A stretch of DNA of 7,070 bases. It comes from a virus. Its lineage: Duplodnaviria > Heunggongvirae > Uroviricota > Caudoviricetes. The position numbers and the translations under genes are program-made. Shown here piece by piece: positions 196 to 6,460 of this stretch. The notes under the pieces were generated by a model that made no database searches, was not told where the DNA came from, and worked only from the letters and a program-made list of their open reading frames with translations. The stretch lies in IMG/VR virus record IMGVR_UViG_2711768069_000006; one strand, written 5' to 3'. The stretch's first letter is position 1. Each line of letters starts with the position of its first letter.

Positions 196-1047
196 ATCTC
201 ACACCTCCGGAAATCCCCGCTGAAGCCATCATTAATGCGACATCATCCTCGCTGACATCCGCCACATCCGCAGACGATAAAATCTCACGCCCTCCGTCCC
301 CACCAAACCGGACGCCTCCGGCAAGTCCTGCCGCTTTCTGCATCAGCATTTTTTCCTCATCCGGCATCTCCGTCTGCGCTTCCTCACGCCGGGGGGCAAG
401 CAGACTGAAATCAGAGGGATGCATATCCGGATCGCAAAAAAACAGGCTGAGTACGGCGTACGTCAGCCCGGAAAAATGCATATCCAGCTGGGTATCGAGA
501 AAATAATGCGTACGGTAAAAACGGTGCCAGTCGGCATATTCGGTGGATGTCATCCCGGCAAGCATGGCGCGCCAGTCAGGCCTCCCCATCTCACGCGCCA
601 GTCTGAGGGCAAAATTCAGCTCGCCGTCGAAGACTTTCCCGCAGAAAAATCATCATCAGTCAGCGCGTTATTTTTCGCCACTTCAGTAATATCAGTATCC
701 GGACGAACAGCTTCGATCATCCCGGACAGGCACAACACCACGTCTTCCGCCCGGGCAATGGCATCGGCAGGCCAGGTGGTGAGCACTTCCTGCTCTATCT
801 TCATCACGGCCTCATTCATTGACGGTGACTGCGTTTTCTGTGGATGGTTATGCCACAGGGACATCGCCACCAGAAACGCGCCGGTTCTGACGAGATCTTC
901 CACGCTTACCTGCAGGTTGCCGCTGGATTCTGCCTGTTCTGCACGCCGTTTCAGGAGGGCAAGATGCTCGATACGCTGCAGCGCAGACAATTCGGAAAGC
1001 GTGACGGACACACCGTTATATTCAAATTGTTCTGTTTTCAGAAACAT
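176..1047 (-). CDS. T: Tail assembly chaperone G-T fusion made by -1 programmed frameshift (G frame 1047..~635, then T frame to 176)
   Basis: The T-frame ORF (track 176..589, containing MLAGMTSTEYADWHRFYRTHYF) stays open upstream through the slippery site at 634..640 with no stop; I translated 640..587 in that frame as GKVFDGELNFALRLAREM. The T frame is exactly -1 relative to G. T has no independent ribosome binding site context, as expected for a frameshift-only product. Confidence 0.85.
616..1047 (-). CDS. G: Tail assembly chaperone G (143 aa)
   Basis: Protein MFLKTEQFEYNGVSVTLSELSALQRIEHLALLKR... closely matches lambda gpG. I place the start at the ATG at 1047..1045, preceded by GGAGG (about 1053..1057), rather than the track start at 1119, which would overlap V by 59 nt. 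Confidence 0.9.
   Translation of the reverse strand: MFLKTEQFEYNGVSVTLSELSALQRIEHLALLKRRAEQAESSGNLQVSVEDLVRTGAFLVAMSLWHNHPQKTQSPSMNEAVMKIEQEVLTTWPADAIARAEDVVLCLSGMIEAVRPDTDITEVAKNNALTDDDFSAGKSSTAS
634..640 (-). promoter_or_regulatory. Slippery heptamer G GGA AAG (minus strand) for the G/GT -1 ribosomal frameshift
   Basis: Plus-strand ctttccc at 634..640 is GGGAAAG on the minus strand. GGA and AAG are the zero-frame Gly-Lys codons of G (protein ends ...FSAGKSSTAS), 7 codons before the G stop at 616..618. This is the same heptamer and frame arrangement as the lambda G/GT shift site. Confidence 0.85.
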
Positions 1048-2803: not shown

Positions 2804-3157
2804 TTATCGTCGCCGGTTAACAGCGGGTGGTTGCCCACGGTTGAGCCAGAGATAACAGCTTCCCCCGTCATCCGGAGAAACACGATCCACCCAGAACATC
2901 TCGCCGTTAATGGTCAGCGTGTCACCACGCCGCACGGCACGCACCGTATCCGTCCGCACAAATAATGACGGGCTGCTTCCTTCAATACGGACCCCGCCAC
3001 CGGCAAAACCCAGCGACTCCGGATCGTCAAAAACCCCCTGAACTTCGCCGCCACGTTGTGCCCCCGAGGTGAACTGCGCACAGAGCCCCATCACTTCAAC
3101 AATCGTTCTGTCCACCCCGGCAAGGGCAGCATCAAAGGAATTCTCAAAATCACGCAT
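2804..3157 (-). CDS. FII: Head-tail joining protein FII (117 aa)
   Basis: MRDFENSFDAALAGVDRTIVEVMG...GVFDDPE...GVRIEGSSPSLFVRTDTVRAVRRGDTLTI...FWVDRVSPDDGGSCYLWLNRGQPPAVNRRR matches lambda gpFII, including the identical C-terminal tail. Start overlaps the FI stop by 8 nt. Confidence 0.94.
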   Translation of the reverse strand: MRDFENSFDAALAGVDRTIVEVMGLCAQFTSGAQRGGEVQGVFDDPESLGFAGGGVRIEGSSPSLFVRTDTVRAVRRGDTLTINGEMFWVDRVSPDDGGSCYLWLNRGQPPAVNRRR

Positions 3158-3518
3158 AAACGGCCATTCCGCTCCTAACCATGTCTTTTGCCACTGAGGG
3201 GGGCATCAGAATTACTCTGCCAGCATCAACATGCTCAACAGGCTCACCTGTTTCATCGTCAACACCGCACAGGTAAAAACACTTCAGAAGCCTGATACGT
3301 TCCAGAATACCAACGTCATCCTCACCGGTGTGCCTGCATGCCTGCTCATGAACGGTATCATCAACATCTGCGATTTCATTTTCCGAGGCGCAAACCTCCT
3401 CTTCCCACTCTGCCACACGCTGTGCGATATCCGCAGCACTCCCCGACATATCCGCCTCGCGCCCCAGCAGACCAGCCAGTTCACGAAGACGTTTCTGATT
3501 TTCTTCTTTTGTTGCCAT
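3150..3518 (-). CDS. FI: DNA-packaging / head assembly protein FI-like, divergent (122 aa)
   Basis: Position between E and FII, similar size, and loose resemblance to lambda gpFI at the N-terminus (MATKEENQKRLRELAGLLGRE...), but clearly more diverged than its neighbours. I place the start at the ATG at 3518..3516, preceded by GGGAG; the track start at 3566 is a GTG inside the upstream hairpin with no ribosome binding site. Confidence 0.7.
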   Translation of the reverse strand: MATKEENQKRLRELAGLLGREADMSGSAADIAQRVAEWEEEVCASENEIADVDDTVHEQACRHTGEDDVGILERIRLLKCFYLCGVDDETGEPVEHVDAGRVILMPPSVAKDMVRSGMAVYA

Positions 3519-3533
3519 ATCCAGCTCCCTGTG

Positions 3534-3561
3534 AAAAAAACACGGGGGCATTTCGCCCCCG
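3534..3561 (-). terminator. Rho-independent terminator-like element: 7-bp GC stem, 5-nt loop, then a U7 tract
   Basis: Minus-strand RNA reads CGGGGGC-GAAAU-GCCCCCG followed by UGUUUUUUUC (stem 3561..3555 and 3549..3543, U-tract 3540..3534). It starts 8 nt after the E stop (3570..3572) and ends 15 nt before the FI start. Confidence 0.55.
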
Positions 3562-3569
3562 CTCACGGA

Positions 3570-4598
3570 TTATTTCACCTGTACCACCACAAACTCATCC
3601 GGATCCGGCAGCACCATCAGCGGCGCGGACTGCGTCATGGTGAATTCACAGGACGGATCGCCCACGGTCAGCCAGTGTTTCGGGTAACGGGAAGAAGCCA
3701 CCACTCCTTCAGACAACGCCTGTGCATCCTTAATGGCTCCATAGCAACGAATCCCCTCTGCTGCCGTATTCCCCAGCACCAGCGTGCCCTCCGGCAGATA
3801 ACGTTTTTCGGTACCGTCCTCTGCCACATAAGACGTTTTCGCCACCACAATGGCCAGATCGCCGTAATACCCCTTGAAGGATACCACTGCGCCCAGATCT
3901 TTCACTGCCGTTTCGAGTTGTGAATTTGAACCGCGACGGGTATCCATTTTTTCGCGGAAAAGCTTAAAGCCATTCAGCAGACGCCAGACGGTACCGTCCA
4001 TAATGGCAATATTCACAAGACCACTGGCCTGATCACAGAAAAGGTCGATATCATATGTCGGGTCGAACGTGTCACGATCCTGTTTTGACCACTCCTTACC
4101 GCTACCTTGTATGATGTTATTCTTCGTCGATCGGCCAAAATCGACTTCAATTTTCTCGAACTGGTCTCCTTCCATCGTATATTTGCCATACAGCACGGCA
4201 TTCACCGCCTGCATTTCTTCCACCTGCACAATAGCGTGCTCTTCCTGTTTGAGGTTATCAGTGATGATACGCAGACGACGGTAGGCCGGGTCGTTCAGCT
4301 GAGCCGGATCTTCACCGGGAAGGCGCTCAACCGCCTGCTGGTAATTAAATTCGTGTTTCGGCTTGACGTAGCCCGGACGCAACACGCGGGTTTCACCACC
4401 ACGATGGCGCAGCACTTTTCCTTCAACGATCGGGGAGACATAGGCCGCCACCGGCGTTTTTCCGGTAATTTTGTCCAGCATCACCTCTTCGGTGTGGAAA
4501 TTCACCGTACGGCGGAAAAACAGCTCCAGAAATAGCGCACGGAATTTCACTTTTTGTTCGGTATAACCGAGTAACTGGCGGGTCGTAAACAATCCCAT
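3570..4598 (-). CDS. E: Major capsid protein E (342 aa)
   Basis: Collinear match to lambda gpE (YVSPIV, PGYVKPKHE, DPAYRRLRII, QVEEMQAV, KYTM, TRRGSNS, LETAVKDLG, GNT...YG, SAPLM, DPDEFV). AAGGAA Shine-Dalgarno 7 nt upstream of the ATG at 4598. Confidence 0.97.
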   Translation of the reverse strand: MGLFTTRQLLGYTEQKVKFRALFLELFFRRTVNFHTEEVMLDKITGKTPVAAYVSPIVEGKVLRHRGGETRVLRPGYVKPKHEFNYQQAVERLPGEDPAQLNDPAYRRLRIITDNLKQEEHAIVQVEEMQAVNAVLYGKYTMEGDQFEKIEVDFGRSTKNNIIQGSGKEWSKQDRDTFDPTYDIDLFCDQASGLVNIAIMDGTVWRLLNGFKLFREKMDTRRGSNSQLETAVKDLGAVVSFKGYYGDLAIVVAKTSYVAEDGTEKRYLPEGTLVLGNTAAEGIRCYGAIKDAQALSEGVVASSRYPKHWLTVGDPSCEFTMTQSAPLMVLPDPDEFVVVQVK

Positions 4599-4626: not shown

Positions 4627-4648
4627 TCAGGCCACCATGGTGGCCTGA
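4627..4648. repeat. 22-bp perfect palindrome TCAGGCCACCATGGTGGCCTGA in the D-E spacer
   Basis: Checked base by base: 4627..4648 is its own reverse complement, centred on CCATGG. It lies between the D stop (4656..4658) and the E ribosome binding site and start (4598). No U-tract follows it on the mRNA strand. Confidence 0.8.
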
Positions 4649-4655
4649 TAACGTG

Positions 4656-5003
4656 TTACGGCAGAGCCGCGTGACTCAGGGCTGTGCCGGCAAAGGCATT
4701 TGCCTTTTTGTGTTCATCCACACTGTCAGGCCAGCGGATTGCCTCCGTCGCAAAGGTCCCCGACTTGTAATAGGTCAGCACCGTCTCTGTGCCTTCAAGC
4801 GGCAGTACCAGTATGCCAACCGCACTACCGGCTTTCTGTCCATCCCAGACCACCAGTTTCCCGGTGGCTTCATCCAGCATCAGGGGCGTCAGAGCCGGTG
4901 TTGCAGAAGAAATCCCGCTGCTGCCTGTGGCGGTATGAGCCGGATCATTACCAGCAAAAATACGTACTTCCGCACGCTGTTCAGTGATGGTTTTCGTCAC
5001 CAT
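4656..5003 (-). CDS. D: Head decoration protein D (115 aa)
   Basis: NDPAHTAT, TPLMLD, KLVVWDG, AVGIL, YKSGTF and AFAGTA motifs match lambda gpD; position between C/Nu3 and E; ATG at 5003..5001. Confidence 0.93.
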   Translation of the reverse strand: MVTKTITEQRAEVRIFAGNDPAHTATGSSGISSATPALTPLMLDEATGKLVVWDGQKAGSAVGILVLPLEGTETVLTYYKSGTFATEAIRWPDSVDEHKKANAFAGTALSHAALP

Positions 5004-5039: not shown

Positions 5040-5642
5040 TCATGGCATGGCCATGAGCATTTTCACGTCCGCATCACCGTCTGCTGACGTCTGTGACACG
5101 CCACCCCGCACCGCTGCCGGTGAATGATTCGCCATGAAATGTTCAAACAGGGCGGTTGTGGATGCAGAGACCGGTTCGGCCTTACCTGATCCCGCAGCCA
5201 GCACAGCCCGGGCGTTCTCCACGGTCATTCCCGGGCAGGCAGCCAGTTTTTCAGCCTGCGCTTCTGCCCCTTTTGCCTCATCCAGGGCCATGATCTGATC
5301 ACGAAGTGAGGGCCCGGCATCCGCCAGTGGTGCAGCCGCCAGGATCGGGCGGGCTTTTTCCACCGTCATCTCCGGCATCGCCGCCAGCGTTGCCGCCAGT
5401 TGTTCACGACCGTTCGCTTCTTCACACGCCATAATGCGATCGGCTTCACTCTGCGCGGATGCCACCGGCTGCTGCGGTGCCGCCGCGGCCAGAATCGCCC
5501 GGGCCTGTTCAACGCTCATGCCCTGTTGCCCTGCCAGCATCGTGGCAAGCTGTTCACGTCCTTTCGCTTCCTGACACGTCAGGATCCCCATCACTCGCTG
5601 GTTCTCCTGCACTGCGGCTTCCGTTGCAGTTAATTGCGGCAT
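5040..5642 (-). CDS. Nu3: Nu3-like scaffolding protein, translated from a nested in-frame start inside C (200 aa)
   Basis: Internal ATG at 5642..5640 preceded by GAGGAGG (5653..5647); product begins MPQLTATEAAVQENQRVMGILTCQEAKGRE... The product length of 200 aa is essentially the same as lambda Nu3, which is likewise nested in-frame in the 3' part of C. Confidence 0.65.
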   Translation of the reverse strand: MPQLTATEAAVQENQRVMGILTCQEAKGREQLATMLAGQQGMSVEQARAILAAAAPQQPVASAQSEADRIMACEEANGREQLAATLAAMPEMTVEKARPILAAAPLADAGPSLRDQIMALDEAKGAEAQAEKLAACPGMTVENARAVLAAGSGKAEPVSASTTALFEHFMANHSPAAVRGGVSQTSADGDADVKMLMAMP

Positions 5643-6460
5643 AGTGCCTCCTCTGACATTACTGTTCAGCGCCGTGGCCATCACACTGATGGCATCCGAC
5701 GCATTGATTAATTCATCCGCCAGCCCGGCCTCAATGCCGGACTGACCTTCAAAAACGGCGGCCTCTGTTCCCGTGACGGCATCAACAGACAGACCGGTAA
5801 ACATGGCCACTTTTTCGGCAAACATCCGGCGCGCCGCATCAATGCGCTGCTGCATGTCCTGGCGAACCTCTGCCGGTAAGGCTTCAAACTGATTGCCATC
5901 CACCTTGTGCGCCCCTGAGTAAATCAGCGTGATATCCACACCGGCCTGCGCCAGATGACCGGCATAGCTGACATGGCTCATCATCACGCCAATGGAGCCG
6001 ATACGGGATGTCTGGGTAACCAGCCGTCGGGAGCAGGCCGACGCCAGCAGCATGGCTGCAGAACAGGCCGTGTCATTGCACAGTGCCCAGACCGGCTTCT
6101 GCTGACGGAGGCGGTAAATCATGTCAGCGCAGTCAAACGCGCCGGCGGCCTGCCCGCCCGGACTGTCAATGTCCAGCAGTACGCCCCGCACCTGGCTATC
6201 CGCCATTGCCTGCTGAAGACAGGCGACAATGCCGTCATAGCCTGTCATTCCGGAAAATGGCCGCATACCCCCCAGCCGGTGCACCAGCGTGCCGGTCACC
6301 GGCAGTACAGCAATACCGTTCACCACCCATGTGGTACCGAAAGACTTGCTGCCCCCATCTCGCGCCCGAGCGCGCAAAAGAAAACCCGCGCATAGGCGGG
6401 CTCCAGAAGCAGCGGTTCATTGAATGCTGCGGCAATAATGTGTGAAAGATTACGTCTCAC
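5040..6460 (-). CDS. C: Head maturation protease / minor capsid protein C; reading frame is interrupted near the 5' end (frameshift or error at about 6330..6365)
   Basis: The main ORF (5040..6416 in its frame) encodes VVNGIAVLPVTGTLV..., with strong resemblance to lambda gpC through the protease and scaffold regions. It has no credible start in its own frame: no ATG or GTG before the conserved region, and the track start is a TTG with no Shine-Dalgarno. The lambda-like N-terminus (V)RRNLSHIIAAAFNEPLLLEPAYARVFFCALG is in the other frame (6460..6323, stop at 6320..6322), starting at a GTG at 6460 behind GAGGAG and overlapping the B stop by 11 nt. Confidence 0.85.
5172..5600 (-). repeat. Three tandem diverged repeats of about 141-150 bp (about 48 aa) within the C/Nu3 scaffold region
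   Basis: Protein repeats: RVMGILTCQEAKGREQLATMLAGQQGMSVEQARAILAAAAP / RIMACEEANGREQLAATLAAMPEMTVEKARPILAAAP / IMALDEAKGAEAQAEKLAACPGMTVENARAVLAAG. At DNA level, compare the segments starting at about 5196, 5337 and 5487 (for example gccaggatcgggcgggctttttccaccgtcat versus gccagaatcgcccgggcctgttcaacgctcat). Confidence 0.75.

What the first reader, a model, noticed from the sequence alone, without database searches (positions are those of the whole stretch)
3534..3566. Terminator-like hairpin with a U7 tract inside the late operon, directly after major capsid gene E
A GC-only 7-bp stem (CGGGGGC/GCCCCCG) with a 5-nt loop is followed by UGUUUUUUU on the mRNA strand, which is the textbook architecture of an intrinsic terminator. 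It sits between E and FI, the boundary between proteins needed in hundreds of copies (D, E) and those needed in few. It could attenuate transcription, subject to readthrough by Q-type antiterminated polymerase, or act as a 3' stabiliser of processed upstream mRNA. The FI ribosome binding site lies immediately downstream of the U-tract.
Basis: partly seen in the sequence, partly recalled or inferred. Interest (0 to 1): 0.45.

Follow-up and report, generated by a model that had tools for sequence, protein, structure and literature searches.

The report
Terminator hairpin after phage capsid gene
A real, evolutionarily conserved terminator-type RNA hairpin follows the major capsid gene of this lambda-like E. 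coli prophage; it is an ordinary, previously noted kind of element whose exact job inside the late operon has not been measured.

Summary
On the minus (mRNA) strand, CGGGGGC-GAAAU-GCCCCCG (3561..3543; 8 pairs with the outer G·U, 3562..3542) is followed by UGUUUUUUU (3542..3534). It starts 7 nt after the stop codon of the major capsid gene (phage 21 gene 7 / lambda E homologue). The FI Shine-Dalgarno sequence (3530..3525) and ATG (3518..3516) follow.

The element is not chance. Only 3 of 1000 shuffles of the window gave an equally strict terminator.

A stable GC hairpin sits in the same place in every relative examined, with unrelated stem sequences: about 17 lambdoid hairpin lineages and 13 distant Casjensviridae-like phages. 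The D/E spacer hairpin is not conserved in this way.

U-rich tails are much better in lambdoid phages (5.6 of 9 U) than in the distant phages (3.5 of 9).

An identical prophage encodes a lambda-Q-type antiterminator 14 kb upstream on the same strand.

Best reading: an intrinsic terminator that stops unmodified RNA polymerase and is read through by Q-modified polymerase. Its conserved hairpin marks and protects the 3' end of the capsid mRNA segment.

The homologous N15 site is already annotated as a putative terminator, and T7 and P22/L have analogues. No transcript data were available, so function is inferred. Interest is low to moderate.

The parts
3570..4598 (-). Major capsid protein gene (lambda E / phage 21 gene 7 homologue). 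Stop codon TAA at 3572..3570.
   Evidence: Pfam Phage_cap_E 2.5e-65. 95.5% amino-acid identity to phage 21 gp7. Annotated as major capsid protein in the identical RefSeq prophage.
3542..3562 (-). Terminator-type hairpin: 5' arm GCGGGGGC (3562..3555), loop GAAAU (3554..3550), 3' arm GCCCCCGU (3549..3542). It begins 7 nt after the E stop codon.
   Evidence: Sequence. Folding (-16.8 kcal/mol). All 80 pair cells are paired across 10 distinct variants, including one compensatory change. A hairpin occupies the same position in all relatives.
3534..3542 (-). U-rich tract UGUUUUUUU (8 of 9 U) directly 3' of the GC core.
   Evidence: The majority of relatives read UGUCUUUUUU. Lambdoid lineages average 5.6 U in 9, against a background T frequency of 0.21.
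3525..3530 (-). Shine-Dalgarno sequence AGGGAG of FI, 3 nt after the U-tract and 6 nt before the ATG.
   Evidence: An RBS is annotated at the homologous place in phage 21 record M81255. It is predicted to be largely unpaired: mean 0.60, the highest of the nine late-gene RBSs in the window.
3150..3518 (-). FI (DNA-packaging chaperone) gene, ATG at 3518..3516. The mechanical ORF that starts at GTG 3566 runs through the hairpin and is not the likely start.
   Evidence: Pfam Packaging_FI 5.7e-16. RefSeq and M81255 both use the ATG. ORF list.

Best explanation
This is an intrinsic (Rho-independent) terminator-type element in the 51-nt spacer between the major capsid gene and FI. It lies inside a late operon that is transcribed under lambda-Q-type processive antitermination.

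Proposed mechanism:
1. RNA polymerase that has not been modified by Q forms the 8-bp GC hairpin in its exit channel while paused on the U-tract, and releases the transcript at about 3536..3534. Such polymerase would come from read-in or spurious initiation in the lysogen, or be a minor fraction during lytic growth.
2. Q-modified polymerase coming from PR' ignores the site, so FI and the tail genes are still made.
3. On read-through RNA the same hairpin folds after transcription. Once the single-stranded U/A-rich spacer downstream is cut, it blocks 3'-to-5' exonucleases. The D-E capsid segment therefore persists longer than the distal RNA.

The net effect is a defined, protected 3' end for the mRNA of the protein needed in the largest amount. 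The operon stays closed to unlicensed transcription.

Shown: the structure, its strand and position, its conservation, and the presence of a Q gene. Inferred: termination, read-through and stabilisation.
For: Canonical anatomy:
- 8-bp stem with 7 GC pairs, 5-nt loop, 8 of 9 U, sense strand only.
- An equally strict site arises in only 3 of 1000 shuffles.

Position:
- The two largest spacers among the window's gene junctions flank E; the other junctions are shorter or overlap.
- It is the only canonical terminator in about 19 kb between terminase and the end of J in the identical prophage. All other sense-strand candidates are also intergenic: after Q, after the tRNAs, after J and after lom.

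Conservation by position and structure, not by sequence:
- The post-E 45-nt window is more stable than the locus average in 23 of 23 lineages (z from -0.9 to -4.5). It is the most stable window of the whole locus in 8.
- About 17 distinct lambdoid hairpin cores and 13 Casjensviridae-like cores were found, many with UUCG or GAAA loops.
- The 21-like clade shows one compensatory and three wobble-preserving changes, and none that disrupt pairing.
- Internal control: the D/E spacer hairpin is not conserved in distant relatives.

U-tract:
- It is enriched in lambdoids (5.6 of 9 U) over Casjensviridae-like phages (3.5 of 9), Mann-Whitney p = 0.001. It is also enriched over those hosted by enteric bacteria, Vibrio or Aeromonas, p = 0.016. 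This fits full terminators being tolerated where Q exists.

Antiterminator:
- A Q gene of the lambda type (PF03589, 1e-49) lies 14 kb upstream, co-oriented.

Precedent:
- The N15 record annotates the homologous hairpin as a putative rho-independent terminator.
- T7 T-phi sits immediately after major capsid gene 10 and transcript abundance drops after it (PMC6938266).
- Phage L/P22 has a predicted terminator at the end of the procapsid module inside the late operon (PMC8022706).
- A terminator library study addressed terminator-mediated enhancement of upstream mRNA stability (PMC11696848, title and abstract).
- That Q-modified polymerase resists intrinsic terminators is established knowledge (Roberts and colleagues; the Q21 and Q-lambda structures of 2019-2022), cited from memory.
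Against: - No 3'-end, RNA-seq or half-life data for this or any homologous site could be found in the held literature.
- From memory, classical lambda work (Ray and Pearson 1974-75; Sampson et al. 1988) concluded that late genes are transcribed about equally and that translation initiation sets the protein ratios. Those papers were not held. If correct, that argues against strong attenuation here and leaves little room for a large stability effect.
- Several lambdoid lineages (N15, phi80, L117, L164) and most Casjensviridae-like phages have poor U-tracts. Termination as such is therefore not what is universally conserved.
- The lambdoid versus Casjensviridae contrast is not corrected for phylogeny or host GC content.
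- Within-clade covariation alone is not significant: 93 of 500 shuffles reach it.
Confidence: 0.55

Rival explanations
1. Pure insulation. The only selected function is to stop polymerases that did not start at PR' with Q, such as spurious or read-in transcription in the lysogen. This keeps tail and packaging genes silent in the prophage. There is no meaningful effect on capsid mRNA level or stability during lytic growth.
For: - Good U-tracts are concentrated in temperate lambdoid lineages that carry Q.
- The same logic was proposed, with RNA-seq support, for the terminators inside the antiterminated pLS20 conjugation operon (PMC8191782).
- It was offered as one possibility for phage L/P22 (PMC8022706).
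- The junction is present in prophages of 1563 of 5426 complete E. coli genomes, so the lysogenic state is its usual condition.
Against: - It does not explain why the site is always immediately after the capsid gene. Insulators could sit anywhere in a 20-kb operon.
- It does not explain why phages of the Casjensviridae-like group keep the hairpin with poor U-tracts.
Confidence: 0.2
2. Leaky attenuator. Even Q-modified polymerase (or, in phages without Q, ordinary polymerase) terminates here in a fixed fraction of passages. This directly lowers transcription of FI and everything downstream relative to D and E, as T-phi does in T7.
For: - The position is identical to T7 T-phi, where transcript abundance drops after the terminator (PMC6938266).
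- The site lies at the boundary between high-copy and low-copy virion proteins.
- Partial termination is one of the options named for phage L/P22.
- Weak U-tracts in phages without a known antiterminator would fit deliberately inefficient terminators.
Against: - Major tail protein V (about 200 copies per virion in lambda, from memory) lies downstream and also needs high expression.
- Q-modified polymerase is highly terminator-resistant (established knowledge).
- Classical lambda hybridisation data indicated roughly equal transcription along the late operon (from memory; papers not held).
Confidence: 0.12
3. Translational element. The hairpin uncouples FI initiation from ribosomes terminating on E, or sets FI translation by shaping the structure around its RBS. 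Transcription is irrelevant.
For: - In an 81-nt fold the UCC right after the stop codon pairs with the GGG of the FI Shine-Dalgarno sequence, enclosing the hairpin.
- N15 and phi80 show an analogous UCCA/UGGA closure.
- The FI RBS lies 3 nt after the U-tract.
Against: - With more 3' context the outer helix disappears and the FI Shine-Dalgarno sequence is the most accessible of the nine late-gene RBSs (mean unpaired 0.60).
- The outer helix is broken in natural variants: CCGGGAG in L028, L084, L091 and L092, and a different 3' flank in L009.
- It does not explain the U-tract enrichment.
Confidence: 0.08
4. No function. The hairpin is a chance palindrome, or a passive remnant at a mosaic module joint.
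For: - The spacer lies between the prohead module and the head-completion module.
- Homology to many phages ends about 120 nt into FI.
Against: - Only 3 of 1000 shuffles give such a site.
- A hairpin is present in 30 or more independent lineages with unrelated sequences.
- All natural stem variants preserve pairing.
- The homology breakpoint is inside FI at about 3396, not at the hairpin.
Confidence: 0.03

Closest known systems
Phage N15 stem_loop 7053-7073 between gene 8 (major capsid) and gene 9 (FI homologue), annotated 'putative rho-indep. transcription terminator' in NC_001901
   Same: Homologous flanking genes (58% amino-acid identity in the capsid protein). Same spacer. GC hairpin a few nt after the stop codon. 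Sense strand.
   Different: Unrelated stem sequence (GUGGCCC-AUUC-GGGCCAC). Much poorer U-tract (CUUUCUGGA, 4 of 9 U, against 8 of 9 here). Neither site has been tested experimentally as far as the held literature shows.
Lambda E/FI spacer hairpin (AUGGCCC-UUCG-GGGCCAU, then UGUUUCUCU; NC_001416 about 7163-7190)
   Same: Same genes, same position (starts 3 nt after the E stop) and same orientation. Conserved in 65 lambda-type loci examined.
   Different: Shorter stem with a UUCG tetraloop and an interrupted U-tract (6 of 9). Not annotated in the lambda record. The window's version is the stronger terminator on paper.
T7 T-phi, the terminator immediately after major capsid gene 10
   Same: A terminator hairpin placed directly after the major capsid gene inside a long co-directional structural gene block. 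Transcript abundance falls after it, yet downstream genes are still expressed (PMC6938266).
   Different: T-phi acts on T7 RNA polymerase, and downstream genes have their own promoters. There is no processive antiterminator. No sequence relationship.
Predicted intra-late-operon terminator at the end of the procapsid module of Salmonella phages L and P22
   Same: A lambdoid late operon with a single promoter and Q-type (gp23) antitermination. The terminator lies at the end of the capsid/procapsid gene block. [quoted passage not shown] They suggest partial termination or blocking of spurious transcription (PMC8022706).
   Different: P22-type coat protein and head module, not the E family. Prediction only.
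Internal terminators of the pLS20 conjugation operon, bypassed by the conAn processive antitermination system
   Same: Multiple intrinsic terminators inside a long operon. Only polymerases licensed at the operon start read through them. Proposed to limit spurious transcription and to allow differential expression (PMC8191782).
   Different: A Gram-positive plasmid with an RNA-plus-protein antiterminator. The terminators are not tied to one particular gene.

Membership tests
Intrinsic (Rho-independent) transcription terminator | GC-rich stem of about 5-14 bp with a short (3-8 nt) loop | tested here: met
   8 pairs (7 G-C plus 1 G·U), loop GAAAU, -16.8 kcal/mol.
Intrinsic (Rho-independent) transcription terminator | U-rich tract of 7-9 nt immediately 3' of the stem on the transcribed strand | tested here: met
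   UGUUUUUUU, 8 of 9 U, starting at the last stem position. The plus strand has no such tail.
Intrinsic (Rho-independent) transcription terminator | Located in untranslated RNA downstream of a stop codon, in the sense orientation | tested here: met
   Starts 7 nt after the E stop codon and ends 15 nt before the FI ATG. Same strand as all ten genes of the window.
Intrinsic (Rho-independent) transcription terminator | Transcript 3' ends generated at the U-tract by RNA polymerase alone | not testable with these tools
   No Term-seq, RNA-seq or in vitro transcription data for this or a homologous site were found.
Lambda-Q-type antiterminated late operon | Q antiterminator gene upstream of, and co-oriented with, the lysis and morphogenesis genes | tested here: met
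   Not in the window itself. In the 100% identical prophage of E. coli FDAARGOS_536, a 273-aa protein matching PF03589 (1e-49) lies 14 kb upstream on the same strand. It is followed by tRNAs, lysis genes, terminase, portal, protease, D and E.
Lambda-Q-type antiterminated late operon | PR' promoter with a Q-binding element and a tR' terminator just downstream of Q | tested here: inconclusive
   Two terminator-like hairpins lie about 80 and 410 nt after the Q stop codon (L109 5947 and 6275). The promoter and Q-binding element were not examined.
mRNA 3' stabiliser hairpin (exonuclease barrier within a polycistronic RNA, as described for REP elements in malE-malF or the puf operon; from memory) | Stable stem-loop at the 3' boundary of the more highly expressed upstream segment | tested here: met
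   The hairpin directly follows the capsid gene in 30 or more lineages, whether or not a U-tract follows.
mRNA 3' stabiliser hairpin (exonuclease barrier within a polycistronic RNA, as described for REP elements in malE-malF or the puf operon; from memory) | Longer half-life of the upstream segment that depends on the hairpin, and processed 3' ends at its base | not testable with these tools
   Requires decay measurements in wild-type and stem mutants.
Any curated RNA family (Rfam 15) | Match at or above a family's gathering score | tested here: not met
   No match anywhere in the window on either strand.

The most novel reading that the evidence does not exclude
The hairpin after E-family major capsid genes may be an ancient, near-universal RNA element of this capsid module. 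It was found here in gamma-, beta- and alpha-proteobacterial phages down to 24% capsid protein identity.

On this reading its core function needs no U-tract. It would act as a 3'-end-defining or exonuclease-blocking structure that sets capsid mRNA dosage. It would have been upgraded to a full intrinsic terminator only in lineages that own a processive antiterminator (Q).

A further, less likely extension: the hairpin plus U7 end yields a stable Hfq-binding RNA derived from the capsid 3' UTR.
Probability: 0.3. Interest if true: 0.5.

Novelty: new member of a known kind. Interest (0 to 1): 0.3.

Why it matters
How a single 20-kb late transcript yields proteins over a very wide range of amounts is a classical question for lambda. 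Casjens and co-authors wrote in 2020 that the roles of terminators inside late operons are not known (PMC8022706).

The comparative picture assembled here gives that question a concrete handle:
- The hairpin is always present after the capsid gene.
- Good U-tracts appear mainly where a Q antiterminator exists.

Stem mutants and U-tract mutants at one defined site in lambda or phage 21 would separate three possible roles: termination, insulation and RNA stabilisation.

There is also a practical consequence for annotation. The site should be marked as a regulatory feature, and FI should start at the ATG (3518), not at the GTG inside the hairpin.

As a single observation it is ordinary. It is a textbook terminator at a place where terminators have already been noted.

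Tried and rejected
Literature: ten full-text searches for direct transcript evidence found none for lambdoid E/FI sites. Topics covered the lambda late operon, terminators, ribosome profiling, Term-seq, ONT-cappable-seq and gpFI/gpE. Sampson et al. 1988 and Liu et al. 2013 are not held. The EHEC Term-seq paper covers only tR'.

Rfam: no family matched.

Repeat element: the hairpin is a single copy in the window, so it is not a REP-like or dispersed repeat.

RNase III site: rejected, because an 8-bp stem is far shorter than RNase III substrates (established knowledge).

Bidirectional terminator: rejected, because the plus-strand tail is CUCACGGAU.

Occlusion of the FI RBS: suggested by the 81-nt fold but not supported with more context or by natural variants.

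Within-clade covariation statistics: too little variation to be significant on its own, with 93 of 500 shuffles reaching it. The argument rests on cross-lineage positional conservation instead.

The genome-contig scan with a single protein gave only 7 loci. Wider sampling came from two IMG/VR scans and from tblastn against phage records.

Full report
**What the window is**

All long ORFs with family matches lie on the minus strand and follow lambda order:
- C/Nu3-type S49 protease, 5040-6377
- head decoration protein D/shp, 4656-5003
- major capsid protein E, 3570-4598
- FI, 3150-3518
- FII, 2804-3157
- Z, U, V, G and T

The DNA is closest to phage-21-type head genes: 87% identity to M81255 and 94-96% to PhiR5_1. 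A 501-base stretch across the junction (3300-3800) is 100% identical to a prophage in the E. coli FDAARGOS_536 chromosome. The E/FI junction occurs in 1563 of 5426 complete E. coli genomes.

**The observation**

The minus strand reads UAA-UCCGUGA-GCGGGGGC-GAAAU-GCCCCCGU-GUUUUUUU-CAC-AGGGAG-CUGGAU-AUG.

- The hairpin is 3562..3542.
- The U-tract runs to 3534.
- The stem-loop energy is -14.8 to -16.8 kcal/mol, and it is part of the MFE and centroid folds in context.
- It is the best of the loose terminator-like hits in the window.
- Under a strict definition it is the only hit on either strand, and that definition is met in 3 of 1000 dinucleotide shuffles.
- It is single-copy, matches no Rfam family, and is not a terminator when read on the plus strand.
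The mechanical ORF starting at GTG 3566 runs through the hairpin and is not the start used by M81255 or RefSeq.

**Close relatives**

Eighty IMG/VR loci with capsid proteins at least 94% identical, together with phage and genome records, gave 17 distinct spacer sequences.

- The hairpin is essentially invariant.
- The four natural stem variants all keep pairing. One is a compensatory G:C to A:U (E. coli and Shigella chromosomes, L009 and L010). Three are G:C to G:U.
- With so little variation the covariation statistic is not significant by itself (93 of 500 shuffles).
- The uninterrupted U7 of the window is a minority form (8 of 87). Most relatives read UGUCUUUUUU.

**Distant relatives**

The strongest evidence is positional.

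- Lambda, N15, phi80, Gifsy-1 and prophages of Providencia, Serratia and E. whittamii have quite different GC hairpins starting 0-21 nt after the capsid stop codon. So do about ten further lambdoid lineages from IMG/VR and 13 Casjensviridae-like phages of gamma-, beta- and alpha-proteobacteria, down to 24% capsid identity.
- Many of these hairpins have UUCG or GAAA loops.
- In 23 of 23 lineages tested, the 45-nt window after the capsid gene folds more stably than the average of its locus (z from -0.9 to -4.5). In 8 it is the most stable window of the whole locus.
- In the distant phages the spacer after the capsid gene is 55-81 nt, while junctions further downstream are tight or overlapping.
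- As an internal control, the hairpin in the D/E spacer of the window (4648..4627) is conserved in the 21-like clade but absent from most distant relatives. Hairpins are therefore not a general property of spacers in this module.

**Hairpin versus U-tract**

U was counted in the nine bases after the last G-C pair.

| Group | Lineages | Mean U of 9 | Background T frequency |
|---|---|---|---|
| Lambdoid | 17 | 5.6 | 0.21 |
| Casjensviridae-like | 13 | 3.5 | 0.19 |

- The difference gives Mann-Whitney p = 0.001.
- Against only the five Casjensviridae-like phages hosted by enteric bacteria, Vibrio or Aeromonas, p = 0.016.
- The test is not corrected for phylogeny.
- The universally conserved part is the hairpin. 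A terminator-grade tail is a feature mainly of the lambdoid group, and the window has one of the best.

**Operon context**

In the identical prophage, a 273-aa protein with the lambda Q domain (PF03589, 1e-49) lies 14 kb upstream on the same strand. It is followed by a methylase, tRNAs, an esterase, lysis genes, terminase, portal, protease, D and E.

A moderately strict terminator scan of that 40-kb locus finds sense-strand candidates only in intergenic positions:
- two just after Q
- one after the tRNAs
- the D/E and E/FI sites
- one between the tail assembly gene and J
- one after J and one after lom

Between terminase and the end of J, only the E/FI site has a canonical U-tract.

**Mechanism**

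Established knowledge (from memory) is that Q-loaded RNA polymerase is resistant to intrinsic terminators, because Q restricts hairpin formation at the RNA exit channel.

The best-supported reading is therefore a conditional terminator. Unmodified polymerase stops at the site, and Q-modified polymerase passes it. The hairpin then folds in the read-through RNA, where it can protect the upstream D-E segment from 3' exonucleases once the U/A-rich spacer is cut.

- That the hairpin is kept even where the U-tract is poor favours an RNA-level role for the stem.
- That good U-tracts cluster where Q exists favours a true termination or insulation role in lambdoids.
- Both roles have precedent. T7 T-phi lies directly after capsid gene 10, with a drop in transcripts after it (PMC6938266). 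A library study addressed terminator-mediated enhancement of upstream mRNA stability (PMC11696848). The internal terminators of the antiterminated pLS20 operon were proposed to suppress spurious transcription (PMC8191782).
- For P22/L the authors list the same options and say that the roles of such terminators are not known (PMC8022706).

The rivals are pure insulation, leaky attenuation, a translational role and chance. They are scored separately in the rival explanations.

- The translational idea came from an outer helix that pairs the UCC after the stop codon with the FI Shine-Dalgarno sequence. That helix is broken in natural variants. With more context the FI Shine-Dalgarno sequence is predicted to be the most open of the late-gene RBSs.
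- Against strong attenuation stands classical lambda work, recalled from memory, that late genes are transcribed about equally. Those papers were not held.

**Known or new**

The homologous N15 hairpin is annotated as a putative rho-independent terminator. Analogous sites are on record for T7 and P22/L. The phage 21 record and the RefSeq prophage leave this one unannotated.

It is a new, unannotated member of a known kind. No experiment on any lambdoid E/FI site was found in the held literature, so termination, read-through and stabilisation remain inferences.

**Verdict**

- Function is untested.
- The single site is of low interest. The family-wide pattern gives modest added interest, because it makes an acknowledged open question testable.

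Noticed in passing
window 4627-4648 (-), in the 57-nt spacer between shp/D (4656-5003) and E (3570-4598): There is a second strong hairpin, UCAGGCCACC-AUGG... (9 pairs, palindromic), with a poor tail (CUGAUUUCUG), so E is bracketed by two hairpins. It is conserved with loop and stem variants in the phage-21-like clade but absent from most distant E-family phages. It may mark the 5' boundary of a processed E mRNA, or be a weak terminator after D.
   Followed up: partly
window 3519-3566 (-); PV340550.1 (L007 900-1316): The first in-frame start of the FI ORF is a GTG at 3566, inside the hairpin region, which gives 138 aa. At least one deposited phage record (PhiR12_2) annotates FI from that position. 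M81255 and RefSeq use the ATG at 3518 (122 aa), which has a good Shine-Dalgarno sequence. The long form is probably an annotation artefact.
   Followed up: partly
window 3534-3542 (-) versus L001, L006, L007 and most of L015-L094: The window's U-tract is UGUUUUUUU. The majority of close relatives (79 of 87 junctions) have UGUCUUUUUU, one base longer and interrupted by a C. The window therefore carries the variant predicted to terminate better.
   Followed up: partly
window about 3396 (-), inside FI: Nucleotide similarity to phage 21 and many related phages runs through E, the spacer and the first 120 nt or so of FI, then stops (query positions 404-408 of 3300-3800). A mosaic joint therefore lies inside FI rather than at the intergenic hairpin.
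   Followed up: no
window 634-640 (-), near the end of G (616-1047): The lambda-type slippery heptamer GGGAAAG is present once, at the place expected for the G/GT -1 frameshift that joins the tail assembly chaperones G and T. One occurrence is what chance alone would give (mean 1.15), so only its position is meaningful.
   Followed up: partly
window 3500-3541 (-): With FI coding sequence included, the U7 run is predicted to pair with the purine-rich FI codons 3-8 (AAAAGAAGAAAAU). This alternative structure would exist only in read-through RNA. Its significance is unknown.
   Followed up: no
L109 (NZ_CP033762.1) 28722-28741, 32343-32360 and 33018-33037: In the identical prophage, a palindromic hairpin between the tail assembly gene and J looks terminator-like on both strands. 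Canonical terminators follow J and the lom-family gene, which is the classic moron arrangement. These lie outside the window.
   Followed up: no
L098 (Pseudomonas phage ZRG1) 1580-2044: The gene that follows the capsid gene and its hairpin, at the position of FI, is annotated as a protein containing a Rho termination factor N-terminal domain. This is a curious neighbour for a terminator-like hairpin. It was not examined.
   Followed up: no
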